Source: Eledone cirrhosa
Taxonomy: Eukaryota
DNA: 64,000 bases
Direction of reading: 5' to 3'
Assembly (NCBI GenBank): GCA_964016885.1
Contig: OZ024740.1
Span: 182,094,001 to 182,158,000 of the forward strand
Shown here: positions 4,989-62,289 of the stretch, piece by piece
Position numbering within the stretch: position 1 is the first letter of the stretch
Layout of the letters: the number at the start of each line of letters is the position of its first letter
Notes under the pieces: model-generated
Database searches by the model: none
What the model was told of the DNA's origin: nothing
What the model saw: only the letters and a program-made list of their open reading frames with translations
Translations under genes and position numbers: made by a program

Positions 4989-5036
<48 letters not shown>

Positions 5037-8733: not shown

Positions 8734-8845
8734 CTTCTTCTTCTTCTTCTTCTTCTTCTTCTTCTATAATTATGATTTCTTTATTATAATCAAACATTGT
8801 GTGAAGTTTGAACATTTAAACTTACAAAGCACTGAAGAAATAAAT

Positions 8846-18348: not shown

Positions 18349-19305
18349 ACTAGACATGAAAAATGCGCAAACTCAAAAGTGCCACAGAATGTTATAATAA
18401 ACCTTCAAAAGTGTGGGACTAGAGTTGTTGCTAAAAAATATTGTAATCATTATATATCGTACATTCTGTGGCATCCTTTATAAAAATAGCTTAAACCAAC
18501 GAAGCCTTTATTTTTACGCTATTTCACTTAGTTAATTCTTAGAGTGTAACATATAAAAATAAATACATCTATGTTTAATGTAATAACAGCTATAAATAAT
18601 TACGTAATATTATTATCATATACTCATAGTAACAAAATAATTGTGTTGAAACTTAATATGATGCTTATATGAACGATCAAATCTATAATGATAATTTCTT
18701 AAATATACTAATAGTAAAATAATTTAGTTATCTATTGTTACATTTTCATAGAACTATAATATTACCAATCGTATTGCATTATCAAATTTTTATCACTACA
18801 AACTTTCATATTGGAATTACCTTAAGCCACTTATTATTACTTCGCTTTCGTACTTTTACAGCTGTAGATATTGCGCTGTATCTTATATCTAATATCAATA
18901 TCTCGTGGTAATTTGCATGAAGTGTAAAATAGGTTTATTAATAACTTTAATATGAAATGTATTATACAGGGCTGCGGAGTCGGTCAAAAATTGACTGGCT
19001 CCAACTCAGGATCCGATACTCCATTATTTCCTAAATTTCAGCTCCGCAGCTCTGTTATTATATTAATTAATTTATTTTATAGTTGTAAATCATATTTTTA
19101 TATGTTACACTCTAAGAATTAACTAAGTGAAATAGCGTAAAAATAAAGGCTTCGTTGGTTTAAGCTATTTTTATAAAGGATGCCACAGAATGTACGATAT
19201 ATAATGATTACAATATTTTTTAGCAACAACTCTAGTCCCACACTTTTGAAGGTTTATTATAACATTCTGTGGCACTTTTGAGCTTGCGCATTTTTCATGT
19301 CTAGT
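18349..19305. repeat. ~212 bp near-perfect inverted repeat pair around a ~530 bp spacer
   Basis: 18349-18561 is the reverse complement of 19093-19305 with about one mismatch. Confidence 0.9.
18967..19054. mobile_element. 88 bp hAT-type MITE
   Basis: TIRs cagggctgcggag / ctccgcagctctg. Candidate 8-bp TSD gtattata / ttattata. Confidence 0.65.
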
Positions 19306-21610: not shown

Positions 21611-22422
21611 GAGAATGTACAATTTATTTTTGTTAGTTATTCTGTATTTTCTGTTTAACTTTATTTTTTTCTGTTTCAAGAGGGGCCTTATCCAAATATT
21701 CAAGCCACAATAAAATTATCACAGAAATCTAGATGAAAGACACACTATATAGAAAGATATATAATAGATATCAAACTTGAAAAAAAAATCTACTGTCTTG
21801 CAGATGGCTTCAGAATTTTGCTATGAGGCTTTGCTTTATATTTACAGTCCATGACAGTATCGAGGGTACCTTTGAATTTTTCACACTGACCAATCATTGC
21901 CCAGGCCCTAAACAACCCAGAAATCGTTCATATTCTGATTAATTTTTAGCCTTCGGTTTTAGGTGTATTATGCAACTATATATAGTTGAAAAAGAGGGTA
22001 GTTCTATACAAAACAAAGGTTATAGTTAAAAAGTAAGGGTGGAAATGCACAGAAAAATATATAATTTTATAATTGTTGCATTACATATAACTGGTTTCGA
22101 TTGGTATAACAATTTTATCAAATATAGATATTAAATATTTTTTTTAAAATGTATTTTGTGTATTTTGTTTCAATTTTGTTTAATGGTTTGTTTAGGTGTG
22201 AATTAATCTTTTTGTCTTGTGGTATGTGTGTGTGTGTTTATTTACCTCTTGTATCAAGAGATCAAAATTGCTTTTTAGGAGTTGAAGAAAAAAGTAACCA
22301 TAAGAATAAATAGATGAAACATGATTGAAAGGGTTGTTTTTTGGGGGGAGGGGGGGGGGGTACAGAGGCTGGGATTGCTGGAGGATTTGCAGGAAAGAGG
22401 AGAGAAATGAATAATAATAATG

Positions 22423-22457
<35 letters not shown>

Positions 22458-24701
22458 TGAGTCCCTACTGAATGGGACACTAAAAAACATAGACACTAAA
22501 AATAGACTGGAAATAAAGTACAAGACTAGGGGGAAAAGGCTAAATATTATCAGAGAGGAACTGAAGAAACGCATTGTAGCAAAGAGTGCAAAAATTAGGC
22601 GATACGAGAGCAGAGTCAGTCAGTATAGACAGAACCGCATGTTTGACAACAACCAGAAGATGTTGTTTGGACAGCTTGAATGGAAAGAAAGAGGCAACGG
22701 CTTAATCCCTGAGGTGGAACAAACTAAGACATTCTGGAGAGGAATATGGGAGCAGGATGTTAAACATAATGACCAGGCAGTGTGGATTGAGACAGTACAA
22801 AAGGAGATTAGTGAACAGGCACACCAACAAACTCATTTGAGTATCACAGTTGAAACTCTCAAGGGGCAGGCAAAAAAACTAACCAACTGGAAATCACCAG
22901 GCCCAGATGGTGTGCAGGGGAATTGGATTAAAAATGTAACATGCCTCCACCCGAAGCTGACAACCATGTTCAATGACTGCTTGATGTCAGGTGAGGTACC
23001 AGAGTGGTTGACAAAAGGTACCACAGTTCTGGTGATGAAAGACTGAATCAAGGGTAATGATGTCACCAACTATAGACCTATCACATGTCTGTCCGTAATG
23101 TGGAAATCTACCATCACCTCCACACAAACAACCTGTTACCGGACGAACAGAAAGGATGCCGAAAGAAGTCCCGTGGTACAAAGGACCAGTTACTTATTGA
23201 TAAGATGGTAATGGGGAATTGCAAGAGGAGCCACACTGATCTTGCCATGGGATGGATAGACTACACAAAGGCATTTGACATGGTGCCTTATTCTTGGATC
23301 ACCAAAAGCCTAGAGATCTTCAAGGTGGCAGATAACATCAGACAGTTGTTGAGCAAAAGTATGAAGTCCTAGGAAACAGAGTTAACATCAGCTGGAGAAT
23401 CCTTGGGAGGCGTGAAGATCAAGAAAGGTATCTTCCTGGGAGATTGTCTGTCCCCTCTGTTGTTTGTCCTTGCCCTGATGCCCCTGACCATTATACTGCG
23501 AAAAGTGAGAGCAGGATACAAGTTGGGAAAGGGAGAGCTTACCATCAATCACCTCCTCTTCATGGACGATCTTAAGCTCTTCGGGAAGAGTGAGAAGGAG
23601 TTGGATGTGCTTTTTGACACTGTCCGTATTTTCAGCAATGATATATGTATGCAATTTGGTATCAGTAAGTGTGGAGTCCTTGTGATGAAGAGGGGAAAAT
23701 CTGAAGGTGGAAGAGGTCTTATCAGCATAGAGGACTGTGTTCAGATGGAGAAAAACAACCTACACAAATAGGTGACCGATAGTAAGGAGCCAATGCTCAG
23801 AATTGTACTGAAGGAGAGGACAATAGACCAGGGGATGTCCAAGGAGGAAATAACAATGAGGAGAAAGAGCAACCTTCATGAAAAATCCCTTCATATTACC
23901 TTATTTGAGAAAACGGAATTCAGATGTCCACAGACATGGAACTGGTTGAGAAGAGGAGACCTTAAAAAGCCTACAGAAGGAATGCTAATGGCTGCGCAAA
24001 AGCAGGCCCTCAAAACAAAGTGGCTGAAACACCATATTTACAAGGAGGAGGCTATCCCACTGTGCAGGATCTGTGGAGTGAGAGAAGAGACTGTGGATAA
24101 CATTGTATCCGAGTGTTAACACCTAGCCCAGACTCACTATAAGGGATGGAGGCATGATGTGATGGGCAGGGTGATCCACTAGCACCTATGCAAAGTAAAC
24201 AATTTACCACATTCTGAGAAGTGGTATGAGCATAAGCCAGAGTCGGTGATAGAAAACGATCAGGTGAAGGTGCTATGAGATTTTATGATACAGATGGACA
24301 AGAAACTGAAACACAATTGACCTGATCTGGTGGTTTTGGACAAGGAAAAAAGATGGTGCCTGATTGTGGATGTAGCCCATTTGACACGAGAGTGCAAGAG
24401 AAGGAGAGGGAGAAAATTAACCGATACCAGGACTTAAAGTGGGAGGTAAAAAGGATTTGGAACTGCCATGAAGTCAAAGTGGTCCTGATTGTCATAGGCG
24501 CACTAGGTACTATCTTAAAAAGTTTCCAGGATGGTTAAAGAAAATTGGCCCCGCCCCGTTTTTTGGAACACTTCAAAAGGCATGCTTTCTGGGAACAGCA
24601 AGAACTCTCCGATACGTCCTGAATATCTGAGGCTGCAGGTAGTGGCTTGATATTCATTTCAACAAACTTTCCAGTTAACTAACATCAATGACTGAGACTC
24701 A

Positions 24702-24746
<45 letters not shown>
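22458..24746 (+). mobile_element. R4/Dong-like family A, 5'-truncated and internally deleted older copy (A1)
   Basis: Starts right after (TAA)n 22410-22457. RT and RLE motifs in broken ORFs. About 370 bp missing at ~23697 relative to A2. (TAA)n tail at 24702-24746. Confidence 0.93.
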
Positions 24747-24748
<2 letters not shown>

Positions 24749-24996
24749 TTTCTTTATTAACCACAAGGGTTTACATAAAGTAGACATTAAGGACAGTGCA
24801 GGACAATGCAGGACGGTACAAATGGGCATTTCTGCGTGTAAAAAACAAAAACAGAGGATGTAACAAAAAATAACAATGAAAAATTCCCCAATAGGGGGGA
24901 GACTTCGGAGGGACATTTGTGGAGAAAGCCCAGTAAAAAGCCACAATGACCCTGACCACCAAGGCAAGTGCCCTCTCCCAGTTTTCCACCTTTAAT

Positions 24997-27900
24997 TTAC
25001 AGATATATACTCAGAGTAGGCCCATTCACTCGGGCCATTCTTGCTTCTCTCACCCATCTTTCAACAAAATGCTGGGAAGAGAGCACTTCCCTCTCTACTC
25101 TGATTTTCCTTTTCAAATGAAATTTGAAAAAGTCAATCAGAGCATCACCGAAGAGGTAAGTGCTCGTCTTCAGCCCTTTCAAACGTGTCCACCATACTAT
25201 CTCTTTCGCCATGGCCACCAGACAGATAAAAACTGCCTGCCCTTCCCGGCTAAAGGAGGAGGGCGGGGCAATCCTCACGATGGACTCAGATGATAGCTGG
25301 ATCCGTCCTAAACGCGACAGCAGGTGTTCGACATAAACCCACAAGTCAGCAATTTTCGGACACTGGACGAGTGCGTGCAGGACGGTTTCGTCGCCCTGCG
25401 CGCATCTCGGACATGCCCGGCTGACGGCACCTCCATGCCTGTAGAGTTTATCCCGAACTGGCAAGGCTCCTCGGTAGCACTGCCAGGCCAGAGATTTCTG
25501 GAAGTTGTCCATAGGCCCCGGCCCGAAAGTTCTTCCGAAGAGATTGGCTAGTTGATTTTCGTCGACGCCTAGAGTTTCCCCAAGTACGTCGTCGCTCTTC
25601 CCCTGAACTAATCCTCTATAGAACGCCGAGGTGGAGTTTCCACCGATCACATTGCCCGATTGGTCGAGGGCTGTGAGCGCCTGAAGACATTCCAGTCTCC
25701 AGGCGCTCCCTCTCGGTCTTCGCTTGACCCAGGACTGCAGCTCCGTCAAGGAAACGAGCTGGGGAAAAACGCGTCTAGCAAACGGCGACCACACCTGATC
25801 ACCGTCGAGGAAGAGGTGGAGATGCCATAACCTGAGCGCGTGCCTGCGCATCATCAGCCACGGCATGCCCAGCCCTCCACGTAGCGGGTGTTGACAACAG
25901 ATGGACCGCCTGACCATCGGAGCACGTCCCTTCCACAAAAAGCGAAAGAGCAAACGCTCCAGCGCAGTCAGGCGAGGCTTAGGACAAGGTACGACGGTTA
26001 GGCGGTAGCAGATGACAGACGCGATGTACGCGTTAGCCACCTCCGCTCGACCTTTCAGGGATAGCTTCCTCTCCGCCCATTTCTGGGTGAGAGAAGCCAC
26101 CCTGCTCGTCACCTCGTCCCAGTTTTTGTCCGTCTGGAGGTCCGGACCGAACCAGACCCCTAGCAATTTAACCGGTCCGTCCGTCCAGCGCCCAACGACG
26201 CTGTTGGACGGCATGGACCTGCCTCTCCAGGTGCCGAGCTGCAGGCCCACTGACTTTTCCTGGTTGATCATTGCTCCTGTCACCGCTTCGTATTCTCTTA
26301 GTGTAGTGCCGATCGCCTCGATGTGTTTGGCGTTCGACACCACTACGGTGACATCGTCCGCATATGCTGACACGGATCTTCCGCATCCTAGTTCGCGCGG
26401 GACTCCCCTCAACGTCTCCAGTTTGTGCAGTAATGGCTCGAGAGTCAATACGTACAAGAGGGACGAGAGGGGACATCCTTGGCGGACCGAGCGCATGATG
26501 TTGAACGGTTCCGACAGGTGACCGTTCACTCTCACCACAGAGCAGATGTCGCTGTGCATGGCAGCGATCCAGCCTCTGAAGACGGGCCCAAAGCCAGCCG
26601 CCCTCAGGACTGCCGCTAGGTAACGATGGTCGACCCTATCGAAAGCTTTCGACTGATCTAAATTGATCAAGGACCTACCCGTGCCAGGTTCCCTAGCTAC
26701 CCTCTCTACGATGTATCGCATGAGGTGGAGGTTGTCGTGGATGGATCTGTCGGGAATGGCGCATGTCTGCGCCTCTCCCACCAGACCACCAACGACAAGC
26801 GCCAACCTCTTTGCTAGCACCTTGGCCAAAATCTTAAACTCTGTGTTTAGCAGAGTTATGGGCCGGAAATTGTCTATGTTATCCCCCTTGTTCGGATCCT
26901 TTCTCAGCAGTGCCACCGCTCCTCGGCTCACAGAACTGGGAATTCTCCCGTTCTGTTGCCAGTTGCAGTAGACGTCCGCCAAGAGGCCTCCGAACAAGTC
27001 TGGCATCTGTACGTAAAGTTCATAGGGCAGACCATCCAAACCAGGCGATTTACCCCTTGTGCAGCCAGTCATTGCCTCCCGTACTTCAGCGGCTGTTATC
27101 GGCTTTTCGCAACACCTCGCCTCAGTGGCCGAGAGCCGCGGCAGTCCGTCGAGGTAGACACTAAAGTCCATCCCTCTACCCGGCCCCCCGCTGCCCCCGA
27201 ACAGCTGAGCGAAGTGTCGCTGAAAAGCTTCACACATTTGCCCGGGATCGAGTAGCATGCGCCCGTCGTGGTCCACCAAAGACCGGATCGTGGCTTTGTT
27301 GCCACGACGCGCCTCCGCCACCCGGGCCCATTGAACGGCTTTCGTCCCCTCGTGTCTGAGAGCACGCACCCTAGCTCTGACAACGCAGCCTTCGTGCTTT
27401 GCATTGAAGAATTGGTCAAGGGCCAATTTCGCCGCAAGCACGTCGGTCGCAATGCCTTTGCTAAGCGCCTCGTCTAATTTTCTAACTAGTTCTCCCTCTG
27501 CTCTATTTTTCTCTATTGCTAAAGCCTTACTAAACCTAATCGATTCTATTCTAATCGCTCTTTTCAGAGCAAACCACCACTTGTTGTTGACGATGGCCCC
27601 CGTCAACGCCCGCTTAACTAGTTCGCTAATCCGGTCTCTGTAGGCCTTGCGCGCTGGTAAGGACGCGTTTAGCTTCCAGTAGCCGGGTCCTCGTCTATGA
27701 AGCCTATCTAAGTCAAGCACACAGGTCACGAATTTGTGGTCCGTGTAGCTGACTATCTTGAATTGTGGACAGCCTATGCTAGACCTATCTATTTCCCTAC
27801 AAAATACTCTATCTAGATATGATCTGGATGACCCTATGCGGTTTGTCCAAGTCCACATTGGCACATTCGGGAAATCCAATCGGTACCTGTCAGACAGTTC

Positions 27901-28416
27901 AAAACGCCTGAGCAGGTTGGTGAGGCTCTTGCACCCTCCACCCCTATCCACTAATCCCACACAGTCCCAGCGTGCATCTAAGATCCCGTTCCAGTCGCCC
28001 ACTAACACTAAAGAGCGGGACGTTCCAAGAAAGGTCTCCAGACGCCGGAAGAAATCAGGCCGCCCTGCTCCTGTCGGGGCATAGACGGCCACTAGCCTGA
28101 AAGCTTGCCCGTCTCCGCTGGTCACGTCCAGCACCACCAGCTTACCCTCTGGGTCCAGGAAGATGGCCCGTATGGCGAGATCCAAACCTCTCCGAAAAAG
28201 TACAGCAACTCCTCCACCGGATCCAGGACGGCTGGGAGATGCGTACACATCGTAGCCGCCGAAGATCGGTGCGAAGGCCCGTGCTTCGGAGATTCTGGTC
28301 TCGCTGATGGCCACTACATCTATGTTTAGTGACCTGAGGTCGTTGAGCAGGTGACCCTGCTTCCATGACGACCCCAAGCCACGCGCATTTATGCTGCCTA
28401 TTCTGAGTGAGGTCAT
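24997..28416 (-). CDS. Tx1 ORF2: APE endonuclease + reverse transcriptase + C-terminal zinc finger (1139 aa)
   Basis: SINARG, ISETR, VYAP, GDWN, YLDR, TDH (APE); PGYWKLN; SPGLDGLPYE, FRPITLLN, LDQSKAFDRVDH, VRQGCPLS, AYADD (RT); CPRC...ETVLHALVQC. Confidence 0.95.
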   Translation of the reverse strand: MTSLRIGSINARGLGSSWKQGHLLNDLRSLNIDVVAISETRISEARAFAPIFGGYDVYASPSRPGSGGGVAVLFRRGLDLAIRAIFLDPEGKLVVLDVTSGDGQAFRLVAVYAPTGAGRPDFFRRLETFLGTSRSLVLVGDWNGILDARWDCVGLVDRGGGCKSLTNLLRRFELSDRYRLDFPNVPMWTWTNRIGSSRSYLDRVFCREIDRSSIGCPQFKIVSYTDHKFVTCVLDLDRLHRRGPGYWKLNASLPARKAYRDRISELVKRALTGAIVNNKWWFALKRAIRIESIRFSKALAIEKNRAEGELVRKLDEALSKGIATDVLAAKLALDQFFNAKHEGCVVRARVRALRHEGTKAVQWARVAEARRGNKATIRSLVDHDGRMLLDPGQMCEAFQRHFAQLFGGSGGPGRGMDFSVYLDGLPRLSATEARCCEKPITAAEVREAMTGCTRGKSPGLDGLPYELYVQMPDLFGGLLADVYCNWQQNGRIPSSVSRGAVALLRKDPNKGDNIDNFRPITLLNTEFKILAKVLAKRLALVVGGLVGEAQTCAIPDRSIHDNLHLMRYIVERVAREPGTGRSLINLDQSKAFDRVDHRYLAAVLRAAGFGPVFRGWIAAMHSDICSVVRVNGHLSEPFNIMRSVRQGCPLSSLLYVLTLEPLLHKLETLRGVPRELGCGRSVSAYADDVTVVVSNAKHIEAIGTTLREYEAVTGAMINQEKSVGLQLGTWRGRSMPSNSVVGRWTDGPVKLLGVWFGPDLQTDKNWDEVTSRVASLTQKWAERKLSLKGRAEVANAYIASVICYRLTVVPCPKPRLTALERLLFRFLWKGRAPMVRRSICCQHPLRGGLGMPWLMMRRHALRLWHLHLFLDGDQVWSPFARRVFPQLVSLTELQSWVKRRPRGSAWRLECLQALTALDQSGNVIGGNSTSAFYRGLVQGKSDDVLGETLGVDENQLANLFGRTFGPGPMDNFQKSLAWQCYRGALPVRDKLYRHGGAVSRACPRCAQGDETVLHALVQCPKIADLWVYVEHLLSRLGRIQLSSESIVRIAPPSSFSREGQAVFICLVAMAKEIVWWTRLKGLKTSTYLFGDALIDFFKFHLKRKIRVEREVLSSQHFVERWVREARMARVNGPTLSIYL

Positions 28417-28451
28417 GTTTAAAATAGAGTGGAAAAGATGGGAAAGACCAC

Positions 28452-30545
28452 TTACCGTACTTTTGGTAGAGGAGGGATGGTTTTTACATCCCTTTTCACT
28501 TGATCGTCTGGTGAAGGGACCGTTGAATCGTCCCTTCGGCTGGTCGTCGGCTCTTCTAAGAGAATGTCTGAGTATACTCTTCGATTGATGGTTCCTCCTA
28601 GGTCCCTGAAATCACCAACTGCGTTGGGGAATTTCGTTTTAATATTTGTGTATTGTTTCTGTGCTATTTTTAGCAGTCTTATGTTAGTTGGCGTTTTGAT
28701 TGGTGCTGGTATTATGTAGTCCTGTTGTGAAATGTCTGTGTGTTCAATTATGTAAGTCATTAGTTTCTTGTTGTGTGTATTTATTGCCGTGCATTTGTTT
28801 TTCTGGGGGTGGGGTGTGGTTCGGCTATTTTCTTGTCGTTGTTGCTGGGTGTGTGTGTTTTGTTGTTGTGTTTGCGATGTTGGTGCTTGTGGTGGTGGTG
28901 TTGAAGGTCTTGTTGGCGGTGGGGTTGTCGCCGGTGGTGATGGTGGCGCTAGTGTGGGTGGTGATGGTGTTGGTGTTGTTGCTGCTGTGGGTCTCTTTGC
29001 AGTAGACTTTACCCTTTTCTCATTTCTTTCCTCCCTTTTCAAAGGCGACGATGCGCTGCTTCTGCGTTTGTGCCTTCTTACGACCTTTTGCCATCTCTCT
29101 CCCACCTCACACTCCATGTCTGATTCTGTGAGGTCGGGGAGGGGTACCAACTCCACTCTTTCACTTGTTGTTGTTGGTGATGTTTGCACTGGAGTCTCTG
29201 TTGCAGCTGCATTTGGTATTGCTGTTGTTGTTGTTAGTATTTCCACTGCTGCTGCTGTTTTTGATTTCCGTGGAGTGGGTATGGGTGCCACGGGCCTATC
29301 GTTCCTGGTTGCCGCTTGTCCTGTTGCTGGTAGCCGTGGAGCCGGATTCGGAAGGAGGGGGGTTTTCTCCTTTCTCAGGGTCTTCTCGTTGCAGAAGGCC
29401 CTGAGGTGAGTCTTCGATCCACAGCGAAAGCATTTCGGGCGTCTGCCCTCAACACTTATGGGCAGTTGAGTGCCGTTATCGAAGTCTATCACATCCGGGA
29501 TAGCTTCGATGCACTCCTGGTTGGTTTGGATTAGCATCTCAATGGAGGAGCCGACCCAATCTTCTCTTACTTTTTTCTGTACTTGCAGTACAGTTGTTTC
29601 GTCCTCGATTCCGACGAGGACAGACGCGGCCAGCCAAGAAGGGGTCATTCCGGGGGGGACGTGGGTCAGTTTGACCCTCACAATTTTTTGCCCACAGTAG
29701 GAGGGCACCAACACCATTTCCTCGCTCCTTAGGGTCACTACTGATTGGGCCTTTGCCTCCTGGGGTGTGGCAAAAAGTACGTCTACGGTGGCATATTTTT
29801 TGTCTCGGGTGATGTGCGTTTTCCGCTGCCACACAGACCCCAAGGCTTTTTGTATTTGGGCCTCTGTGGCTCTTTCCACCCTACGGGATTTTGAACTTAC
29901 TGTACGGTACGTGACCGTACAGTGCTCTTGGGTTTCGAAAAAATTTTTCGCTGCCTTGCAGATTGCTCGGTGTCCGTTCTTTGTCACCATCTTCTTCGCT
30001 TCCTCTAATTCCTCATTTGTTATGAGGATTGTTTCCAAGTTTTTCGCAATACCTGCAAATGAGATTGGTTTTTCTCTGCTGTTGTTGTCGTCAGAGCTGC
30101 TGGTACTTTTGTTGTTGCTGCAGGTACTACGACTACTGCCTCCGCCGCTGTTGCTGTGGTTGTTGTTGGTGTTGCTGCTGCTAATGCTGTTGTTGTTTAT
30201 GCTGCTGGTGATGCTGTTGCGGCTGCTACTGTTGTTTTCATTGTCACTGTTGCTGTTGTTATTACGGCTGCTACTGCTATTATTCCTGACGTCAGACGAA
30301 TGAACTGGGTTTTCGTATTTCCCGCACACCTGTTTCGTCGCTGTCGTCGTCGTCGTGGAGAAACCTTGCACGCTTTGCACGAGACTTTTCTTTTCTTTCG
30401 TCACTTGCGAAAGAGAAGGGAGGGAGAGAGACACATTTAAAGAAGGGAGGGAGAGAGACAATCTTCTCTCTGCTGTAGTGATGATTGAGGAAGAAGAAGA
30501 CGGAATGAGTGGGAGTGACGTATGAAATTTCTTTTTCGTAGCCAT
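28452..30545 (-). CDS. Tx1 ORF1 gag-like nucleic-acid-binding protein
   Basis: First ATG at 30545. ISFAG motif, RRM-like middle region, CCHC knuckle CFRCGSKTHLRAFC, Ser/Asn- and Pro/Thr-rich tracts. Confidence 0.85.
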   Translation of the reverse strand: MATKKKFHTSLPLIPSSSSSIITTAERRLSLSLPSLNVSLSLPSLSQVTKEKKSLVQSVQGFSTTTTTATKQVCGKYENPVHSSDVRNNSSSSRNNNSNSDNENNSSSRNSITSSINNNSISSSNTNNNHSNSGGGSSRSTCSNNKSTSSSDDNNSREKPISFAGIAKNLETILITNEELEEAKKMVTKNGHRAICKAAKNFFETQEHCTVTYRTVSSKSRRVERATEAQIQKALGSVWQRKTHITRDKKYATVDVLFATPQEAKAQSVVTLRSEEMVLVPSYCGQKIVRVKLTHVPPGMTPSWLAASVLVGIEDETTVLQVQKKVREDWVGSSIEMLIQTNQECIEAIPDVIDFDNGTQLPISVEGRRPKCFRCGSKTHLRAFCNEKTLRKEKTPLLPNPAPRLPATGQAATRNDRPVAPIPTPRKSKTAAAVEILTTTTAIPNAAATETPVQTSPTTTSERVELVPLPDLTESDMECEVGERWQKVVRRHKRRSSASSPLKREERNEKRVKSTAKRPTAATTPTPSPPTLAPPSPPATTPPPTRPSTPPPQAPTSQTQQQNTHTQQQRQENSRTTPHPQKNKCTAINTHNKKLMTYIIEHTDISQQDYIIPAPIKTPTNIRLLKIAQKQYTNIKTKFPNAVGDFRDLGGTINRRVYSDILLEEPTTSRRDDSTVPSPDDQVKRDVKTIPPLPKVR

Positions 30546-30758
30546 GTTTTTTTGTTTAAAATGAAATTTTGGGTACAAAACCCCAATAACTGGTTATTTA
30601 ACCCCGAAGGGCCAAATAACGGACAGAAAGACCCCTCTCACGAGGAGGAGGGTGTCTTTATCAACAATTTGGTTCAAGTTTTAAACAATTTACAATTGTT
30701 TTAACGGTTAAAAATTACTATACCTTACAGAGCCGAGCCTCCGTCAACCATTGCATTC

Positions 30759-30793
<35 letters not shown>

Positions 30794-30959
30794 GGGAAGA
30801 AGACGCACGAGGTGACGGAGGTCATGAAATCGCTCCCGTAAGTTTTGAATTTTTAACATATTTAAATCATTTGTGAAATAACAACTCTTAGTACAAATGC
30901 TACGTAAAGCACCCGGCTTGAGCCCCAAAAAAATTCGGACCCAAAATATATTGTTATAA

Positions 30960-31610
30960 GGCTCAAATATTCAAATATTCAACTTTGTATTGTACACTGT
31001 ATATCCAAAAAAAAATGGCTATAAATGGAAGAAGAAGAACCCCCCCCCCCCCCTCCTCTCCTCTGGCTACACTATATAGGACAGCTAAACTCACCAACAC
31101 CAGAAACTAGATACACCACCCACCCCATCATCTGTGTACACTAAACACAACAGCATTTTTACCTTCACCGCCACCGCTCACTACGGCCATCATTACCACC
31201 ACTATCCCATCACCGCCGCCACCACCCCTTGACTCCTTCACTGCTGCTGCCACCGCTACAGCACCATCACTACAGTAATACGGCTCAAATATTCAAATAT
31301 TCAACTTTGTATTGTACACTGTATATCCCAAAAAAAATAAAATGGCTATAAATGGAAGAAGAAGAACCCCCCCCCCCCGCCCTCCTCTCCTCTGGCTACA
31401 CTATATAGGACAGCGAAACTCACCAACACCAGAAACTAGATACACCACCCACCCCATCATCTGTGTACACTAAACACAACAGCATTTTCACCTTCACCGC
31501 CACCGCTCACTACGGCCATCATTACCACCACTATCCCATCACCGCCGCCACCACCCCCTGACTCCTTCACTGCTGCTGCCACCGCTACAGCACCATCACT
31601 ACAGTAATAC
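30960..31610 (+). repeat. ~325 bp tandem duplication in the A2 leader
   Basis: 30960-31281 and 31282-31610 are nearly identical. Confidence 0.9.
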
Positions 31611-32181
31611 GGTCGCATCACCGCCGCCACTGCCTCGGTATCGACATCACCACCACCACTGTCTCAGTATCGCCAACGCCGCCAGTCTCTGCTGGCTACC
31701 ACTTCCACATTATAGAATTCCTACTACTAACAAAGAGGAAGGCATCAAAATATATAGATAGACTCAAAAGAAAAAAGAAAAAACAAACAACAAAAGCAGC
31801 ACAGCAACAACAGTAAAAAACGAGAAAAACAGAGAAAAACAAAAACAAAAAAAGAAACCCCAAAAACGTAAAGAAAATAAGAATGAAGAGAGAAGCAGGC
31901 GGACGGACAGAGAAGAGGGGGGAAAAAGTAAAACTTAAAAAACAAAAACTAAGTCAGACATTCGAATACTACATTACAATGAAACTTATGCTTATTCATT
32001 TTTGGGGCCCTTTCTGCCCGTGTGTTTGTTTGTTTATGTGTGTCCGTATACAGCGTGGTGATAATGCCACACAAGGGCCAAGTGGGATGGCGGATCCACA
32101 GATGGCTATGTAAACATACATTCGCCAATCCTCGATAAGAGTGTTTAAATATCGAACATAAACAGTTCGAATAACGGTGAA

Positions 32182-35100: not shown

Positions 35101-35576
35101 TGATGGGCAGGGTGAACCACTGGCACCTGTGCAAAGTAAACAATCTACCACATTCTGAGAAATGGTATGAGCATAGGCCAGAGGCGGTGATGGAGAACAG
35201 TCAGGTGAAGGTGCTGTGGGATTTTAGGATACAGACGGACAAAAAACTGGAACACAATAGACCTGACCTGGTGGTTGTGGACAAAGAAAAAAGATCGTGC
35301 CTGATTGTGGATGTGGCCTGCCCGTTCGACACGAGAGTGCAAGAGAAGGAGAGGGAGAAAATTAACCGATACCAGGACCTAAAGTGGGAGGTGAAAAGGA
35401 TTTGGAACTGCCATGAAGTCAAAGTGATCCCGATTGTCATAGGCGCACTGGGGACTATCTCCAAAGGTTTCCAGGGATGGTTAAAGAAAATCGGCCCCTT
35501 CACGCTTTTTGGAACGCTTCAAAAGGCATGCTTGCTTGGAACGGCAAGAACCCTCCGATACGTCCTGAATATCTGA
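32182..35576 (+). pseudogene. Family A single ORF (N-terminal domain, RT, CCHC, RLE), frameshifted at ~33130, ~34390, ~35020
   Basis: WTKELNRTVMQCYLKS, YRPITCL, WIDYRKAFD, GIFQGDSLSPLLF, FMDDLKL, CRIC...HIVSEC, RHD, RPD. Confidence 0.93.
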
Positions 35577-35687
35577 GGCTGCAGGTAGTGGCTTGATATT
35601 CAATCCAACGGACTTTCCAGTTAACCAACATCAATGACTGAGATTCAAGGAATAACAATAACAATAATAATAATAATAATAATAATA

Positions 35688-38600
35688 AGACGCACGAGGT
35701 GGTAGAACGTCACGAAATTGCTCCCGTAAGTTTTTTGATTTTTAACATATTTAAATCAATTGTGAAAGAACAATTCTTAGCACAAATGTTGCATAAAGGC
35801 ACCGAATGAGGTCCCATAAAGTTTCGGATCCATATTATATTGTTGTATCGCTCAAATATTCAATTTTGTATTATATATTTTGTATTCAAAAAAAGAAAAT
35901 GGTTATAAATGGAACAAAACACCCTCTGTCTACACTATATAGAACAGCGGCAATTTCAATTTCACCAACACCAGAAACTTGATACACTACCTATCCAATC
36001 ACACTAAATATAACGGCAACTTCACCGGCATCATAATAATAATTACTATTATTATCGTCTCAAATTTTAAAAAATGTTTAATTCAAATTTTACGGGAATA
36101 TGTCAACACAAAATATAATGAAAATATATATTAAACATACGAACACAAACTCATAGATACTATATCAGCAACCACAACACCACCGCTGCCACCACCCCAC
36201 CACATCCATCATCGCCGCCACCACTCATTCAATGCTACTGACACTATTCCCCTGTTAACTTGAGAGAGAAAAGCGAAGGTGGTGGTAGCACTAGACAAGG
36301 GAGAGGCTAGCAAAAGATATAAATAGATTGACTTGGTGACCTTGCCACGGACAAACGTCTCCATCAACAATTATGGGACTGCTGGCTCACCCCTTCCTCA
36401 CCAACAATATAAAAAGCCCCGGCACCACCACCGACATAGCCAGCAGCAATAACAGCCAACTACAACAAAAAGTATATTATATTATTGTAATGCACTGGGT
36501 GATTGCTGGCCTTGTCCCTGGAGTGGAGACAATTATTAATAATTTCATTCTTAAGCCACGCAATGCTCACATTAAGGAACCACTCATGATAATAACAATT
36601 TAAAAAAAACAACAAAAAGAAAACCCCGTGACCAAGAAATACCGGGATGGCGGCCGGCGGGGAATAGCCGTGTCTCTAGGGGAGAACGACCCCTCTAGTC
36701 TTGGTTGACACTCGTTCTAGAAGTGGTAACACGAAAAGATTACCCCTTGGCGGATAAGGATAAAACGCGAAAAAATAAAGTAAATGTCTAATGATAAAAT
36801 CTCATACCGGATCGGCCGTCACCCGGGTAAAAAAGGGCCGCGTCCCTCAGAGAGGAACCAGACTGGGGTCGAAAAATCAGCTAATGGTTCAAACCTTCCC
36901 ATCACTTCGGAGCTGGAGACCTCCCATAACCGGAATACTCCTACTGTTGGCCCTCCATGCTCACCACCAAGAAATCCAAAGAAAAAGAGAGAAAAATGGT
37001 CAAGGGAAGATAATAAAGAAGTCCTTGAGGCTTTCTACACTGCCATGTACTACCCATCAAATACATCGAATACAGAACAGACATATATCAACTGGAAAAA
37101 GAAACATCCCGAAAACAGAGGCTATATTGACAGTAACAAACTAGCCAATATACGAAGAAATATTGTAAGGAAAAAGTTACTAACTGATATAGAAATTGAT
37201 CAGATCAAGCTATTAGCACAAAGTCAGCGAAGGGAAAATGAAACATGTGTCAGTGAAAACGATGTAAACTGTAACACTTCGAATCCCAGGGTTGGGGCGG
37301 AATCACTGGCAACAGAACAAATTAAAGAAAGGATCGAAAAAGTGGAGGGAGTACATGCTCAGGATGAAACTCCAAATGAAAATAATGAGATCGTAAATGA
37401 TAAAGAAATGAATGAGAATGAACTTGCCAACTTGAAGGATGAAATTATGATCGAATGGATGAAAATAAAATAATCTGACATGGGGAAACGAGACACCCTC
37501 TCGAAGATCCAGAACTCCAAACAAAACCAAAAGATAATACACAAGACTAACATAATTCTCAAAAACATTATCATCACAAACAAACTAAACATTACTGATT
37601 TAAATCATCTCTATTATGCATCGGCTAAAGTCACCACTCACTTATGTGGAGTGAAGATGAAAAAACAAAGGAATTCCAACAAGAAATCTACTTGGCAAGA
37701 GAACATCAATCGCCAAATAAACCTTCTCCGATCTGACATAGAAATTTTAACAAACTATAAAGTAGGTGAACATGTTAAACAAACTAAACTTAGAAAATTG
37801 AAAAGAAAGTACAGTATAAAATCAACAAGTGACATAGACATGCTGATAGAAATAATCAAGCAAAAAGTGTCGGCCAAAGCTGCTCGTATAAGGCGCTTTG
37901 AAAAACGATCTAGATTCTATAAGGACAATAATATGTTCAAAAACAACCAAAGAAACTTCTACAGAAAAATTGGTAAGTCAACAATAACTGCTAAATCAAT
38001 ACCACCCAAGGAGGAAGTGCAAGAATTCTGGGAAAAGATCTGGGCCGAAGAAAAAGTTCATAACATACATGCCCCGTGGATAGACAGACAAATGAAAGAT
38101 ACAGCTCACCTTGAGGAACAAATATGGGAAAATATAATAGTTGAACAGTTGCGCTTGGCTCTAAGAAAAACCAGCAAATGGAAATCCCCAGGAAAAGACA
38201 AAATACAAAACTTTTGGATAAATGCCTTCACAGAGTCTCATGAGCTGTTAGCCCAACTTTACAATGAAATAGTTAAGGAGCCAGAAAAGATACCTTCATG
38301 ACTAGTTAACGGCATTACATTCCTGCTTCCGAAGAATGATGAGACAAACAATCCCAAACATTACAGACCGATAACTTGCTTAACCACAATGTATAACGTT
38401 TTAACATCAGTCCTAACTGAATACACATATGACCACCTGATAACAAATGACCTATTTCCCATTGAGCAGAAAGGGTGTAAACGAGGCTCATATGGCTGTA
38501 AGGATCAGCTTTTGGTTAACAAAATGATACTGGAAGATTGTCATAATAGACACAAAAATCTATCCATTGCTTGGATAGATTATAAAAAAGCATTTGATAG

Positions 38601-40570
38601 TTTGCCACACAGTTGGATTGAAAAATGTTTAGAGATTTTCAAAGTATCCCCCGTTGTCAGGAGGTTTTTGTCATTCAGTATGAAGACATGGAAAACGACA
38701 CTCCTTTTGAATAGTGAAACAAAATCACTGGAAGCTGGAGAAGTTAATATTAATTGTGGAATTTTTCAGGGTGACTCTTTATCACCGCTTTTATTCTGCA
38801 TCGCACTTATACCATTAAGTAAAATGCTCAATGAAACAAAAGATGGATATAAAGTCTATGACAAAACCATTAATCACCTGTTCTACATGGATGACCTGAA
38901 ACTATTTGCAAAAAATGATGAACAATTGCAAGGGCTATTATCCACTGTGAAGCCGTTCAGTGATGACATTAAAATGGAGTTTGGACAAGATAAATGCGCC
39001 AAAGCAACGCTCACCAGAGGAAAGCTGCTGAAGACATTAATCTTGATCGGGGGAACGTGATAAGAGAACTTGATCAAGAAAAAACTTACAAATATCTAGG
39101 TGTTTGTGAAGGAGACGGAATCAAGCACTCGACAATGAGGGAAAGGATAAGGAAGGAATGTTACCGCAGAGTAAGAGCAATCTTAAGAACGGAATTGAAT
39201 GCAAGGAATAGGATCGATGCCATAAACACGCTTGCCATACCAGTAATAACCTACAGTTACAATGTCATCAACTGGTCAAGCACAGAGATCCGTAGGCTCG
39301 ATACAAAAATTCGAAAATTCTTAACCATGCACAGAATGCATCACCCTAAGGCAGATATAGATAGAATATATCTCCCTAGGAAAGAAGGAGGACGTGGGTT
39401 AATCCAGTTAGACATTGCGTTGAAAACTGCAACAATTGGATTATCTACATATCTAAGGGAATCACATGATTGGATGATCAAACTCGTTTTGAAACACGAA
39501 AGCATCAAAAGATCATATTCCATTACAAAAGATGCACAAAGATACAGTAATGGACTACAAATTTCAGAAGTCCCATTTACTGCTGAAATGGAAAACACAG
39601 AAAAAGCAAAGCAGGTAAAAGTAACTGCAAAGAAAGAACTGCTACAGAAACTGGCTAAGAAATGGCAAGAAAAGCCTCTGTATGGAAAATACCCAGAGCG
39701 AGCTAACAATCCTGATGTTGACAAAACTTTAACCCATCAGTGGTTGGCATCCTCTGGACTGAAATCGGAGACTGAAGGACTGATTATATCCGCACAAGAT
39801 CAGTGTCTGCCAACAAAAAATTACCAAGCCAACATAATAAAAAATGGGTGCAGCCCATTATGCCGTGTATGCAAAAAACAACCAGAGACCATTGACCATA
39901 TAATTTCAATGTGCAGTCCTATAGCTCCAACCGAATACCTAAACAGGCATGACAGAGCTGCACAATACATACATTGGATAATGTGTAAGCATTTTGACCT
40001 GCCCCATCAAAAGAATTGGTGGGAGCATCAACCACCTCCCGTACTTGAAAAAGATCACATCTCAATCTTGTGGAACTTTAGCATCCAAACAGACCGAAAA
40101 ATAGATGCAAACAGACTTGATATAATATTGAAAGACTTTCAAAAGAGGGTATGCCTGCTAATTGATATGTCTGCTCCAATAGACAAGAATGTATCTATAA
40201 AAACATTTGAAAAATTGAGCAAGTATAAGGACCTGAAGATAGAAAATGGAAAAATGTGGAAATTGAGAACTAAAACAATACCAGTGGTTGTAGGCGCTCT
40301 GGGAATGATACCTAAGGGGTCTAATGATTACTTATCGCAAATCCCAGGAAACCCGCGTATAGGAGAAATACAAAAGATAGTACTAATGGGAACTGCCCAT
40401 ATACTAAGGAAGATTCTGTCAATATAAGTACATCACAAGTCTAAACACTAAAGATGCATGTGTGAATATGTATGTTATTTCTTGAACATGGCGGACCTTG
40501 TTGTCTCTTGAGGTCACTGGTTGTGACTTGGTGATAACTCGTATGAACATAAAGCAAGATAAATGCAACT

Positions 40571-40609
<39 letters not shown>

Positions 40610-40626
40610 TAATAATAATAATAATA
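35688..40626 (+). mobile_element. R4/Dong-like family B, full-length copy with long leader (B2)
   Basis: Leader 35688-36783 (attachment inferred), disrupted ORF 36784-40427, 3' UTR to 40571, (TAA)n tail. Confidence 0.9.
36784..40427 (+). pseudogene. Family B single ORF (RT + RLE) with stops at ~37471 and ~38299 and a small deletion at ~39030
   Basis: WIDYKKAFDS, GIFQGDSLSPLLF, YMDDLKL, CRVC...HIISMC, RHD, KLSKY. Confidence 0.93.
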
Positions 40627-40629
40627 AAA

Positions 40630-43600
40630 AAAAAAACGTAAAGAAAATAAGAATGAAGAGAGAAGCAGGCGGACGGACAGAGAAGAGGAGGGAAAAACTA
40701 AAACTAAAAAAACAAAAACTAAGTCAGACATTCGAACACTACATTACAATGAAACTTATGCTTATTCATTTTTGGGGCCCTTTCTGCCTGTGTGTTTGTT
40801 TGTTTATGTGTGTTCGTATACAGCGTGGTGATAATGCCACACAAGGGCCAAGTGGAACGGCGAATCCACAGATGGCTATGTAACCATACATTCGCCAATC
40901 CTCGATAAGAGTGTTTAAATATCGAACATAAACAGTTCGAATAACGGTGAAATGGAGACTAGAACGTCATGTGACAGACTCTCACCCAACAGGTGCCCCC
41001 TGGCTCAGTAGCAGGAACCTGACTGTCAACCAAATACTGCTGATGTTGGAGGAAGAAGTAGAAGGAAAGGGGCCAGAACCAACTGGACTAAAGAATTGAA
41101 TAGAACTGTTATGCAATGTTACCTGAAAAGTAACCCCAAGGAGAGGGGCTACAGGAGACGGATACATAACATCTGGAACGAGATTGGTCTATTTAAATTA
41201 GATGAACAAAAATTGGCCGGGCAGGCTCGGGTAATAAGAACTAATGGGTGGATAAGCGAGCTGGAACTGGAGGAACTGAGCAGAGAGAATGGCTTGGAGA
41301 TGGCGGGTGTAGTATGCCAGACAAGCGAGCCAGTGGGAAATGAAGGTGAAGAGGTCCTGAGAACGGAGGAACCACCCGAAGCAGACAATGATCTGAATAC
41401 TGAGATAAATAATACCTGGAACAGAGCTACGGCCACTGAGGAGATGAATGCTGACGGGCTAGGACAAGATTCGGTTGACATCCTAAATTTAGTGGTAGAT
41501 GAATTGAACAATGATAGTGGGAGACCTATGAACCTAAGATTTGTAGACAGGAAAAAGTTAAAAGAGACAACAGCTAAGGTAAACAAAGTCATCCCATACC
41601 TTGAGGCTAGGAGCCTTCACCAGTGCAACAATATCCTCAAAGCAACAGCAAATACGGTGAGGAAACTACTTGGTATAAAAGCGAGAGGAAACAACAGACA
41701 AGAAAGAGCAGAGCCGTGGTGGAAGAAACGACTGAGTGGTCAAATCGGGGAAATGAGAAATGACATAGGAAAGCTTGAGTCACTACTGAATGGGACACTA
41801 AAAAACATAGGCACTAAAAATAGACTGGAAATAAAGTACAAAACTAGGAGGAAAAAGCTAAATATTATCATAGAGGAACTGAAGCAACGCATTGTAGCAA
41901 AGAGTGCAAAAATCAGGCGATACGAGAACAGAGTCAGTCAGTACAAACAGAACCGCATGTTCGACAACAACCAGAAGATGCTGTTTGGACAGCTTGAGGG
42001 GAAAGAAAGAGGCAACGACTTGATCCCTGGGGCGGAGCAAACTAAAACATTCTGGAGAGGAATATGGGAGCAGGATGTTAGACATAATGTCCAGGCAGGG
42101 TGGATTGAGACAGTACAGAGGGAGATCGGTGAGCAGGCACACCAACAAACTGATTTGAGTATCACAGTTGAAACTCTTAAGGGGCAGGCCAAAAAACTAA
42201 CCAACTGGAAATCACCAGGCCCAGATGGTGTGCAGGGGTATTGGATTAAACATTTAACATCCCTCCACCCGAAGCTGACGGCCATGTTCAATGACTGCTT
42301 GGTATCGGGTGAGGTGCCAGAGTGGTTGACAAAATGTACCACAGTTCTGATAATGAAAGACCGAATCAAGGGTAATGATGTTACCAACTATAGACCTATC
42401 ACATGTCTGTCCGTAATGTGGAAACTGTTGACGAGCATTGTGTCTGAGGAAATCTACCATCACCTGCACACAAACAACTTGTTACCGGACGAACAGAAAG
42501 GATGCCGAAAGAAGTCACGTGGTACAAAGGACCAGTTACTTATTGATAAGATGGTAATGGGGAATTGCAGGAAGAGACACACTGATCTTGCCATGGGATG
42601 GATAGACTACAGAAAGGCATTTGACATGGTGCCTCATTCTTGGATCACCAAAAGCCTGGAGATATTCAGGGTGGCAGATAACATCAGACAGTTGCTGGGC
42701 AGGAGTATGGGGTCCTGGGAGACAGAGTTGACATCAACTGGAGTATCCTTGGGAAGCGTGAAGATCAAGAGAGGTATCTTCCAGGGAGATAGCCTGTCCC
42801 CTCTGTTGTTTGTCCTTGCCCTGATGCCCTTGACCATTATGCTGCGAAAAGTGAGAGCAGGATACAAGTTGGGAAAGGGAGAGCTTACCATCAATCACCT
42901 CCTCTTCATGGACGATCTTAAGCTCTTCGGGAAAAGTGAGAAGGAATTGGATGTGCTTGTTGACACTGTCCGTATTTTCAGCAGTGATATATGTATGCAG
43001 TTTGGTATTAATAAATGTGGAGTCATTGTGATGAGGAGGGGTAGGTTGAGCAGAAGTAACGGGATCCAGATACCAACAGGTGAGATGATAAAGGAAATTG
43101 ACTCTGAGGAAGGATACAAGTATTTGGGCGTTCTGGAGGCTGATGGCATAAAGAACAAAAAAAATGAAGGAATTGTTAAGAACTGAATACATTCGGAGAG
43201 TAAGGAGCGTATTGAAGTCACATCTGAACAGCAGAAATGCCATAAGCGCAGTAAATTCCCGAGCTGTGTTTATTATTAGGTACAGTGCGGGAATTCTGAG
43301 ATGGAATGTTGCTGAACAAAAAGAAATGGATAGGAAGACTAGGAAGCTATTGACTATCTACAACATGTTCCACAAGAGGAGTGATGTCGATAGACTCTAC
43401 CTAAGGAGATCTGAGAGTGGAAGAGGTCTTATCAACATAGAGGACTGTGTTCAGATGGAGAAAAACAACCTATACAAATACGTGACCTATAGTAAGGAGC
43501 CAATGCTCAGAACTGTACTGAAGGAGGGGACAGTAGGCCAGGGGATGTCCAACGAGGAAATAACATCAAGGAGGAAGAGCAGCCTTAAGGGAAAATCCAT

Positions 43601-44428
43601 TCATAGTACCTTCTTTGAGAAAACTGAATTTAGAGATCCACAGACATTGAACTGGTTGAGAAGATGAGACATCAAAAAGGCTACAGAAGGAATGCTAATG
43701 GCTGCTCAGGAGCAGGCCCTCAAAACGAAGTGGTTGAAGCACCATATTTACAAGGAGGAGGGTAGCCCACTGTGCAGGATCTGTGGAGAGAGAGAGGAGA
43801 CTGTGGCTCACATTGTGTCCGAGTGTAAACACCTAGCCCAGACCCACTATAAGGGCTGGAGACACGATGTGATGGGCAGGGTGAACCACTGGCACCTGTG
43901 CAAAGTAAACAATTTACCACATTCTGAGAAATGGTATGAGCATAGGCCAGAGGCGTTGATGGAGAACAATCAGGTGAATGTGCTGTGGGATTTTAGGATA
44001 CAGACGGACAAAAAACTGGAACACAATAGACCTGAGCTGGTGGTTGTGGACAAAGAAAAAAGATCGTGTCTGATTGTGGATGTGGCCTGCCCTTTCGACA
44101 CGAGAGTGCAAGAGAAGGAGAGGGAGAAAATTAACCGATACCAGGACTTAAAGTGGGAGGTGAAAAGGATTTGGAACTGCCATGAAGTCAAAGTGATCCC
44201 GATTGTCATAGGCGCACTGGGGACTATCTCCAAAAGTTTCCAGGGATGGTTAAAGAAAATCGGCCCCTTCACGCTTTTTGGAACGCTTCAAAAGGCATGC
44301 TTGCTTGGAACAGCAAGAACCCTCCGATACGTCCTGAATATCTGAGGCTGCAGGTAGTGGCTTGATATTCATTCCAACGGACTTTCCAGTTAACCAACAT
44401 CAATGACTGAGATTCAAGGAATAACAAC

Positions 44429-44465
<37 letters not shown>
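40630..44465 (+). mobile_element. R4/Dong-like family A copy (A3), lacking the distal leader
   Basis: Collinear with 31862-35687. ATG at 40952, stops at ~41009 and ~43665, A8 frameshift at ~43160. (TAA)n tail followed by (GAA)n at 44466-44532. Confidence 0.93.
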
Positions 44466-44494
<29 letters not shown>

Positions 44495-44862
44495 AAGAAG
44501 AAGAAGAAGAAGAAGAAGAAGAAGAAGAAGAATTAATAATAGTATTGATAATATGAAATCAAATTAAAATCTAAAAGAATAATGGAAATGAAAATAAAAA
44601 AATGGAGGAGGAGGGGAGAAGAGAATGAGAGGAATGAAGGAAGAAAAGGAAGAGAGAAAAAGGAAGGGAAAAAGGTTTCCCCGGAATTATGGTGTTTCCT
44701 TTTATTCTGAGTGTGTGAGGTAGCAGGTTTGTGTGAATTGGTTATTCCCATACATAGATTAATATTTATTGTGTAATGGAGAATAATTACACACATGCAC
44801 ACACACACACACACATGTGTGCACACACCCACACACACAGGCGTGCACACACGCACACACAC

Positions 44863-60101: not shown

Positions 60102-60144
<43 letters not shown>

Positions 60145-60318: not shown

Positions 60319-60320
60319 TC

Positions 60321-61756: not shown

Positions 61757-61799
<43 letters not shown>

Positions 61800-62266: not shown

Positions 62267-62289
62267 ATATATAAATATATATATATAAA

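What the first reader, a model, noticed from the sequence alone, without database searches (positions are those of the whole stretch)
22410..44532. 22 kb retrotransposon train in which every junction is (TAA)n: a self-renewing landing pad shared by three families
Seen: the order is (TAA)n-A1-(TAA)n-Tx1(reverse)-(TAA)n-A2-(TAA)n-B2-(TAA)n-A3-(TAA)n(GAA)n, with no recognisable host DNA between elements. The copies have different 5' truncation points and different lesions, so they look like independent insertions rather than a segmental duplication. Known: Dong (R4 clade) elements target (TAA)n. Inference: each insertion splits or regenerates the target, so unrelated RLE and APE elements pile into one growing multi-family array.
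Basis: partly seen in the sequence, partly recalled or inferred. Interest (0 to 1): 0.75.

Follow-up and report, generated by a model that had tools for sequence, protein, structure and literature searches.

The report
Retrotransposon trains chained by TAA repeats
Five jumping-gene copies of two unrelated kinds sit end to end here, joined only by short TAA repeats and each kind facing its own way; such chains recur at many other places in this animal genome, likely because each insertion leaves fresh repeat for the next, and two of the families share a near-identical front end that they likely swapped.

Summary
Real, and not special to this locus. The order is (TAA)n-A1-(TAA)n-Tx1(reverse)-(TAA)n-A2-(TAA)n-B2-(TAA)n-A3-(TAA)12(GAA)22. 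A and B are single-ORF, restriction-like-endonuclease LINEs of Dong/R4 type; Tx1 is an intact APE element. The ~1 kb after pads 3 and 4 is the elements' own 5' leader, so A2 and B2 are full length. Thousands of copies exist. On C1, 241 3' ends form 93 neighbour pairs within 7 kb (7 or 18.5 expected), 91 with fixed polarity: Dong on the TAA strand, Tx1 opposite. 69 of 85 truncated Dong 5' junctions carry TAA. Pads inside trains are no shorter than free ones, and cluster sizes fit preferential growth better than Poisson. Self-renewal itself is inferred: no empty allele was seen, and one other train grew partly by tandem duplication. Added here: A and B share a leader (median 94% identity) although their proteins are 30-50% identical, and one Tx1 variant has a different ORF1. 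Dong-TAA targeting and opposite-strand co-targeting (SART/TRAS) are known; a TAA-targeting Tx1 was not found in my searches. This scan noted the same trains at eight or more other places in this genome. New variant of a known kind.

The parts
22410..22457 (+). Pad 1, (TAA)n, about 16 units; left edge of the train
22458..24701 (+). A1: 5'-truncated Dong/R4-type LINE of an older A subfamily, with an internal deletion near 23695 and several stops
   Evidence: 91-92% to A2/A3
24702..24746 (+). Pad 2, (TAA)14-15, between the A1 3' end and the Tx1 3' end
24747..30758 (-). Full-length Tx1-type LINE: open ORF1 (30593-28452, 713 aa stop to stop) and ORF2 (28611-24997, 1204 aa; APE, RT, zf-RVT)
   Evidence: 98.8-99.3% to five other full-length copies
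30759..30793 (+). Pad 3, (TAA)11, between the Tx1 5' end and the A2 5' end
30794..32181 (+). A2 5' leader/UTR, with an internal 329-bp tandem duplication (30956-31612); its first ~300 bp are shared with family B
30794..35650 (+). A2: full-length Dong/R4-type LINE; single ORF from about 32182, broken by frameshifts; RT, CCHC knuckle, PD-(D/E)xK endonuclease
35651..35688 (+). Pad 4, degenerate then perfect (TAA)8
35689..40571 (+). B2: near full-length second Dong/R4-type family; leader 35689-36783, ORF from 36784 with two stops and a frameshift
   Evidence: 30-50% amino-acid identity to A
40572..40627 (+). Pad 5, (TAA)19
40628..44430 (+). A3: A copy truncated inside the leader, ORF broken; shares the +1 frameshift with A2
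44431..44532 (+). Pad 6, (TAA)12 followed by (GAA)22; right edge of the train

Best explanation
Two Dong/R4-type LINE families and a Tx1-type family sit at (TAA)n microsatellites in fixed, opposite orientations, likely because their two unrelated endonucleases prime reverse transcription on opposite strands of the same repeat, and each insertion likely leaves a usable repeat on both sides, so occupied sites would gain targets and grow into mixed trains. Shown: element identity, TAA junctions, polarity, clustering, many trains, young copies with open ORFs. Inferred: strand of first nick, net gain of TAA at each insertion (by target duplication, tail copying or slippage), and rich-get-richer growth. 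Local unequal exchange adds cars in at least one other train.
For: Exact 3'-end counts: A 7257, B 3441, Tx1 7554. TAA pad at 29 of 30 A 3', 30 of 30 B 3', 25 of 30 Tx1 3', 29 of 30 Tx1-D 5' and 26 of 30 leader ends; TAA at 69 of 85 truncated Dong 5' ends. Next car directly adjacent at 20 of 30 A and 19 of 30 B 3' ends. Polarity: 265 of 265 Dong flanks sense and 141 of 148 Tx flanks antisense among 277 pads; 91 of 93 neighbour pairs concordant; 482 against 0 genome-wide. Geometric cluster sizes fit better than zero-truncated Poisson by 6-7 log units. Pad medians: 13.3 and 14.3 units between Dong cars, 8.0 with no library element on either side. 17 of 26 (TAA)>=5 arrays in 800 kb of evenly spaced sequence abut these elements. 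Cars come from different subfamilies. Dong targets TAA (PMC3812793, PMC7998251, passages); SART/TRAS use opposite strands of one repeat (PMC7265360, passages).
Against: No filled/empty allele pair was obtained, so target-site duplication and tail addition are unmeasured. Overdispersion also follows from uneven accessibility or selection. Longer pads next to elements could mean that long arrays are preferred rather than that repeat is added. 16 of 85 truncated 5' junctions lack TAA (3 GAA, 13 other), and 5 of 30 Tx1 3' ends lie in other AT-rich or (TAG)n sites. One train holds a 100% identical duplicated B fragment found nowhere else. A2 and A3 share two private alleles. The flank samples are the first 30 hits on C1 and partly overlap; the 17 of 26 comes from only 6 of 80 stretches.
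Confidence: 0.75

Rival explanations
1. Shared target without self-renewal: both clades target long host (TAA)n arrays in permissive regions, each insertion only splits the array, and ordinary slippage regrows it later. Trains reflect a limited number of tolerated sites.
For: Free (TAA)>=5 arrays are scarce (9 in 800 kb). Host-side pads before Dong 5' ends are long (medians 19.7 and 21.8), as expected if long arrays are chosen. Uneven site quality also gives overdispersion.
Against: An 11-car train keeps 5-37 units at every junction, against a median of 10 for the 9 free arrays. Splitting itself already doubles the number of pads, so this differs from the main model only in where the extra repeat comes from.
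Confidence: 0.15
2. Trains grow mainly by unequal exchange, tandem duplication or 3' transduction of existing cars rather than by fresh targeted insertion.
For: At C1:55.44 Mb a B-fragment plus Tx1 unit is repeated; the 812-bp B fragments are identical and their private variant occurs only there. A2 and A3 share a frameshift absent from 15 other copies.
Against: A1, A2 and A3 fall in different parts of the A tree, and A2 is nearest to distant copies. Most trains mix families and truncation points. Copies with the same truncation point (B3880 three times, A3912/3913 three times) do not form clades.
Confidence: 0.07
3. Assembly artefact: repeats joined through microsatellites.
For: No independent record spanned this train; all junctions are low-complexity.
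Against: The pads (35-56 bp) are far shorter than a read. Raw 150-nt reads of another sample hold TAA before truncated A ends at four places (56-98 reads each) and an A-tail-TAA-leader join (461 reads, possibly copies of few molecules). Fixed polarity is not expected from mis-joins.
Confidence: 0.03

Closest known systems
Dong / R4 clade (Bombyx Dong, DongAg, DongBg, Darwinula Dong1/2; Dong-R4 of octopuses)
   Same: Single ORF with RT, CCHC knuckle and restriction-like endonuclease; no N-terminal zinc fingers; (TAA)n target (PMC3812793, PMC7998251, passages). Recently active Dong-R4 and L1-Tx1 families are listed for Octopus vulgaris (PMC13282606, parts 1-2 of the text).
   Different: Here two divergent families share one 5' leader and form mixed trains with Tx1. 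Bombyx Dong has a 5' HDV-like ribozyme (PMC3774820, passages); none was detected in these leaders by Rfam or by my uncontrolled descriptor. The octopus passages read do not describe targets or trains.
Microsatellite-targeting Tx1 families (Kibi, Koshi, crocodilian Tx1)
   Same: Two ORFs, APE-RT, microsatellite preference (PMC4494074, PMC3812793, passages).
   Different: Reported targets are (TC)n, (TTC)n, (TTCC)n and (TTTC)n; here it is (TTA)n on the element strand, shared with an RLE element.
SART and TRAS in Bombyx (TTAGG)n repeats
   Same: Two families use one simple repeat in opposite orientations and form arrays (PMC7265360, PMC10088271, passages).
   Different: Both are R1-clade APE elements at telomeres, whose repeat is telomeric. 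Here the partners carry unrelated endonucleases and the trains are interstitial and dispersed.
Drosophila HeT-A/TART/TAHRE telomere arrays
   Same: Multi-family head-to-tail retrotransposon arrays (PMC5537684, PMC13534243, search listing and abstract starts only).
   Different: They attach to chromosome ends, have no microsatellite spacer and serve a host function; none is shown here.

Membership tests
R4/Dong clade | Single ORF with RT and C-terminal CCHC plus PD-(D/E)xK endonuclease | tested here: met
   A natural copy has an open 1141-aa frame; C952-x2-C-x8-H-x4-C, RHD, P1038-D1039, D1054, K1070-Y1074 conserved in 56 homologues; best solved relatives are R2 proteins
R4/Dong clade | No N-terminal zinc finger (unlike R2) | tested here: met
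   No CCHH/CCHC pattern in the first 400 residues of A
R4/Dong clade | Divergent N-terminal Myb/SANT-like domain (PMC7998251) | tested here: inconclusive
   A conserved W56...W86...Q102 block is present in A and homologues, with a similar stretch in B, but no Myb hit in Pfam or by profile against the PDB
R4/Dong clade | (TAA)n target, element on the TAA strand | tested here: met
R4/Dong clade | RT phylogeny grouping with named Dong/R4 elements | not testable with these tools
   No protein named Dong or R4 was returned; no tree with references was built
R4/Dong clade | 5' HDV-like ribozyme (shown for Bombyx Dong) | tested here: inconclusive
   No Rfam hit; own descriptor found none in the A or B leader but had no positive control
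Tx1 clade | ORF1 plus ORF2 with APE endonuclease, RT and C-terminal zinc motif | tested here: met
   Exo_endo_phos, RVT_1, zf-RVT; ORF1 713 aa
Tx1 clade | Closest named relative is Tx1 | tested here: met
   The only named hit of 5 is 'Transposon TX1 149 kDa protein', 32% identity; no tree built
Tx1 clade | Target-sequence preference | tested here: met
   25 of 30 3' ends at (TAA)>=3; 141 of 148 flanks antisense to TAA
SART/TRAS-type telomeric arrays | R1-clade elements in telomeric repeats | tested here: not met
   The window lies at 182 Mb of a 443-Mb contig; the spacer is TAA; the partners are RLE- and Tx1-type. It works like SART/TRAS but is not a member

The most novel reading that the evidence does not exclude
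The trains are a genome-wide, self-made niche, roughly 5% of sampled bases, in which RLE and APE retrotransposons build each other's targets and also trade parts: families A and B, whose proteins are only 30-50% identical, carry the same 5' leader (A's nested within B's diversity, one A copy with a B-type leader), and a Tx1 variant pairs the same ORF2 with another ORF1. Head-to-tail adjacency through TAA would be what drives these promoter and ORF1 exchanges.
Probability: 0.3. Interest if true: 0.72.

Novelty: new variant of a known kind. Interest (0 to 1): 0.5.

Why it matters
It is a natural, heavily replicated experiment on target choice: two unrelated endonucleases use one three-base repeat with near-perfect opposite polarity, and young copies of both with open reading frames are at hand for cleavage assays. 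If insertions renew their own target, it explains how site-specific LINEs can reach thousands of copies while staying out of coding DNA, and why most (TAA)n arrays in the sample abut these elements. The shared leader offers a test of promoter exchange between distant LINE families. Practically, TAA microsatellite markers and assemblies in this genome are confounded by these trains.

Tried and rejected
(1) A fourth element or host DNA after pads 3 and 4: rejected, these are the A and B leaders. (2) A2/A3 as a segmental duplication: rejected as a whole (87 differences, nearer relatives elsewhere); two shared private alleles stay unexplained (short conversion tract, unsampled subfamily or consensus error). 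(3) Truncated cars re-mobilised as short non-autonomous families: copies with the same truncation point form no clade. (4) Dispersed 3' transduction of the B-fragment/Tx1 unit: its private variant occurs only at the two adjacent places. (5) L014 as a clean insertion into a minimal TAATAA, to measure tail addition: the downstream half of the target element is absent, so it is uninformative. (6) Ribozyme: no Rfam hit; descriptor negative for A and B, with one unvalidated partial match 121 nt into Tx1. (7) Empty allele in public runs: contigs and reads are cut at the repeats, nothing bridged pad 1 or pad 3. No RNA holder was listed. (8) A DNA similarity search of the genome with the A 3' end returned nothing; the tool skips very common words, and exact patterns were used instead. 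(9) A Pfam scan of the homologue alignment for a Myb domain was not completed. (10) Papers on exchange of 5' leaders between LINE families were not searched, so novelty of that point is untested.

Full report
Anatomy. Tandem-repeat and self-BLAST scans place six TAA arrays at 22410, 24702, 30759, 35651, 40572 and 44420, the last followed by (GAA)22. Between them lie A1 (5'-truncated, internally deleted, about 91% to A2/A3), a reverse Tx1-type element with open ORF1 and ORF2 (APE, RT, zf-RVT), A2, B2 and A3. A and B encode one ORF with RT, a CCHC knuckle and a PD-(D/E)xK endonuclease; B is 30-50% identical to A in protein. The best solved relatives are R2 proteins. The host looks like an octopod to me from recalled repeat features; no call names it.

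The non-coding kilobase after pads 3 and 4 belongs to the elements. All 30 of 30 genomic A 5' loci carry the A2 leader wholly or in part, and 18 of 30 B loci reach the same start motif. So 'no host DNA' holds, but A2, B2 and Tx1 are essentially full length.

Independence of the cars. A2 and A3 differ at 87 sites and A2 is up to 99.5% identical to distant copies against 97.8% to A3; the tree separates them. Against full independence, they share a +1 frameshift absent from 15 of 15 other copies and one more private base. Two of eight other near-complete A copies have open 1140-1141-aa frames, and the window's Tx1 is 98.8-99.3% identical to five others, four of them with the same 1204-aa ORF2, so both clades are young.

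Genome-wide test. Exact 3'-end motifs occur 7257 (A), 3441 (B) and 7554 (Tx1) times; the leader start 1336 times; a second Tx1 5' end ('D') 1593 times. These are lower bounds. In the first 30 hits of each search, a pad of at least three TAA follows 29 A and 30 B 3' ends, and borders 25 Tx1 3' ends, 29 D 5' ends and 26 leader starts. The next car is directly adjacent at 20 of 30 A, 19 of 30 B (plus 3 SINEs), 22 of 30 D, 19 of 30 leader and 13 of 30 Tx1 ends. Of 100 truncated A/B 5' breakpoints, 15 internal-deletion breakpoints were dropped; 69 of the remaining 85 have TAA, 3 GAA and 13 neither. These samples come from the start of C1 and partly overlap.

Clustering and polarity. Among 241 exact 3' ends in C1 1-56 Mb, 93 neighbour pairs lie within 7 kb, against 7.1 for uniform placement and 18.5 (maximum 34 in 1000) when shuffled within 0.5-Mb bins; 91 of 93 share TAA polarity. 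Over 277 distinct pads, 265 of 265 Dong flanks are sense and 141 of 148 Tx flanks antisense to TAA. Genome-wide, (TAA)3 joined to the leader occurs 482 times and (TTA)3 never. In 80 evenly spaced 10-kb stretches, 17 of 26 (TAA)>=5 arrays abut these elements (16 by script, one by eye; six stretches), and A, B and Tx1-like DNA cover 1.5, 1.0 and 2.7% of bases (rough). Other trains include 11 cars over 23 kb at C1:2.79 Mb and five full Tx1 copies over 32 kb at C1:55.42 Mb.

Is the pad renewed? Cluster sizes fit a geometric law better than a zero-truncated Poisson by 6-7 log units, as expected if every car adds a target, though uneven site quality would do the same. Pads between Dong cars have medians of 13-14 units against 8 where no library element flanks them; pads before Dong 5' ends (15.5-17) are longer than before Tx1 3' ends (10.5). 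This fits net gain of repeat, or a preference for long arrays. By a hand calculation, a model in which all pads are equally used and 9 of 26 arrays are free predicts about 41% adjacency, below the 39 of 60 seen at Dong 3' ends, so extra clustering is likely, on small samples. No empty allele was found. One train grew partly by local duplication: an identical 812-bp B fragment occurs twice in tandem and nowhere else. Recurrent truncation points do not mark re-mobilised short families.

Artefact. Raw 150-nt reads of another sample show TAA before truncated A ends at four places and an A-tail-TAA-leader join. Contigs of runs under two other organism labels hold both the Tx1 5' end and the leader. 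The junction types are therefore real; this exact 22 kb was not spanned.

Module exchange. Over the first 300 bp, 27 A and 32 B leaders are 93.7% identical at the median (maximum 98.6%), higher than B against B (86.2%); A leaders nest among B leaders in a midpoint-rooted tree and one A copy carries a B-type leader. The coding regions show almost no DNA alignment. A recent exchange is the simplest reading; the direction needs a root, and a role of the trains in it is inference. Likewise Tx1-D shares ORF2 at 96% but has another 5' UTR and ORF1 (about 50-55% protein identity where alignable), and a third Tx1 family is about 81% identical.

Comparison. Dong elements target TAA in insects and a snail (PMC3812793, passages) and in most insects, molluscs and cnidarians (PMC7998251, passages). 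Tx1 families target (TC)n, (TTC)n, (TTCC)n and (TTTC)n (PMC4494074, passages). SART and TRAS use one telomeric repeat in opposite directions (PMC7265360, PMC10088271, passages). Octopus papers list active Dong-R4 and L1-Tx1 families without targets or trains in what I read (PMC13282606 parts 1-2 of 3; PMC9115989 passages). Passages of PMC3774820, PMC4640811 and PMC3747384 were also read. Nine searches showed no paper on a TAA-targeting Tx1 or on mixed RLE/APE microsatellite trains, judged from listings and abstract starts. Kojima & Fujiwara 2004, Repbase and all supplements were not seen and may bear on this. The scan's own notes describe the same trains at eight other places in this genome; they are unchecked AI notes and not independent support.

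Verdict. Observation confirmed, interpretation supported with renewal still inferred. It is a new variant of known site-specific retrotransposon behaviour, common in this genome rather than peculiar to this window. Interest 0.5.

Noticed in passing
window 4199-8765 (- strand): A second, shorter train with the same polarity rule on the other strand: (GAA)11, truncated B, (TAA)15, short A, (TAA)n.
   Followed up: partly
window 44467-44532; L083, L085, L119, L137, L143, L146, L169, L174: (GAA)n tracts often border trains, on either side; 3 of 85 truncated Dong 5' junctions lie in GAA rather than TAA. Compound (TAA)n(GAA)m sites or a relaxed target.
   Followed up: no
L129, L136, L142, L217, L305; window about 36487-36553: A SINE-like element (label recalled, not from a call) sits antisense right after TAA pads in 15 of 277 pads, and a fragment of it is embedded in the B leader.
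   Followed up: partly
L281-L310; G000:C1:37130971-37136840: Tx1-D: same ORF2 as the window's Tx1 (96%) joined to a different 5' UTR and ORF1; 1593 exact 5'-end matches.
   Followed up: partly
G000:C1:55441837-55455644: Tandemly repeated unit of an identical 812-bp B fragment plus a full Tx1, found only there: local duplication inside a train.
   Followed up: yes
window 34386 and 35116, and the matching A3 sites: A2 and A3 share a +1 frameshift and one substitution seen in no other sampled copy, though they are not sister copies.
   Followed up: partly
L089, L090, L069, L076: Short Tx1 copies inserted in minimal ATAAT sites within a satellite or in (TAG)n, showing that Tx1 needs only a short TAAT-like core.
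   Followed up: no
L102, L130, L136, L139, L303: Recurrent 5' truncation points (A 3912/3913 and B 3880, three times each) in unrelated copies suggest reverse-transcription pause or microhomology hot spots.
   Followed up: partly
window 18349-19305 and 59628-62273: Two near-perfect long inverted repeats (213 bp at 99.5%; 644 bp at 99.5%), possibly young DNA transposons or foldback elements.
   Followed up: no
window 44900-46400, 62883-63970: Decayed fragments of another repeat family beside the train, RTE-like by recalled resemblance; about 1% of sampled bases.
   Followed up: no
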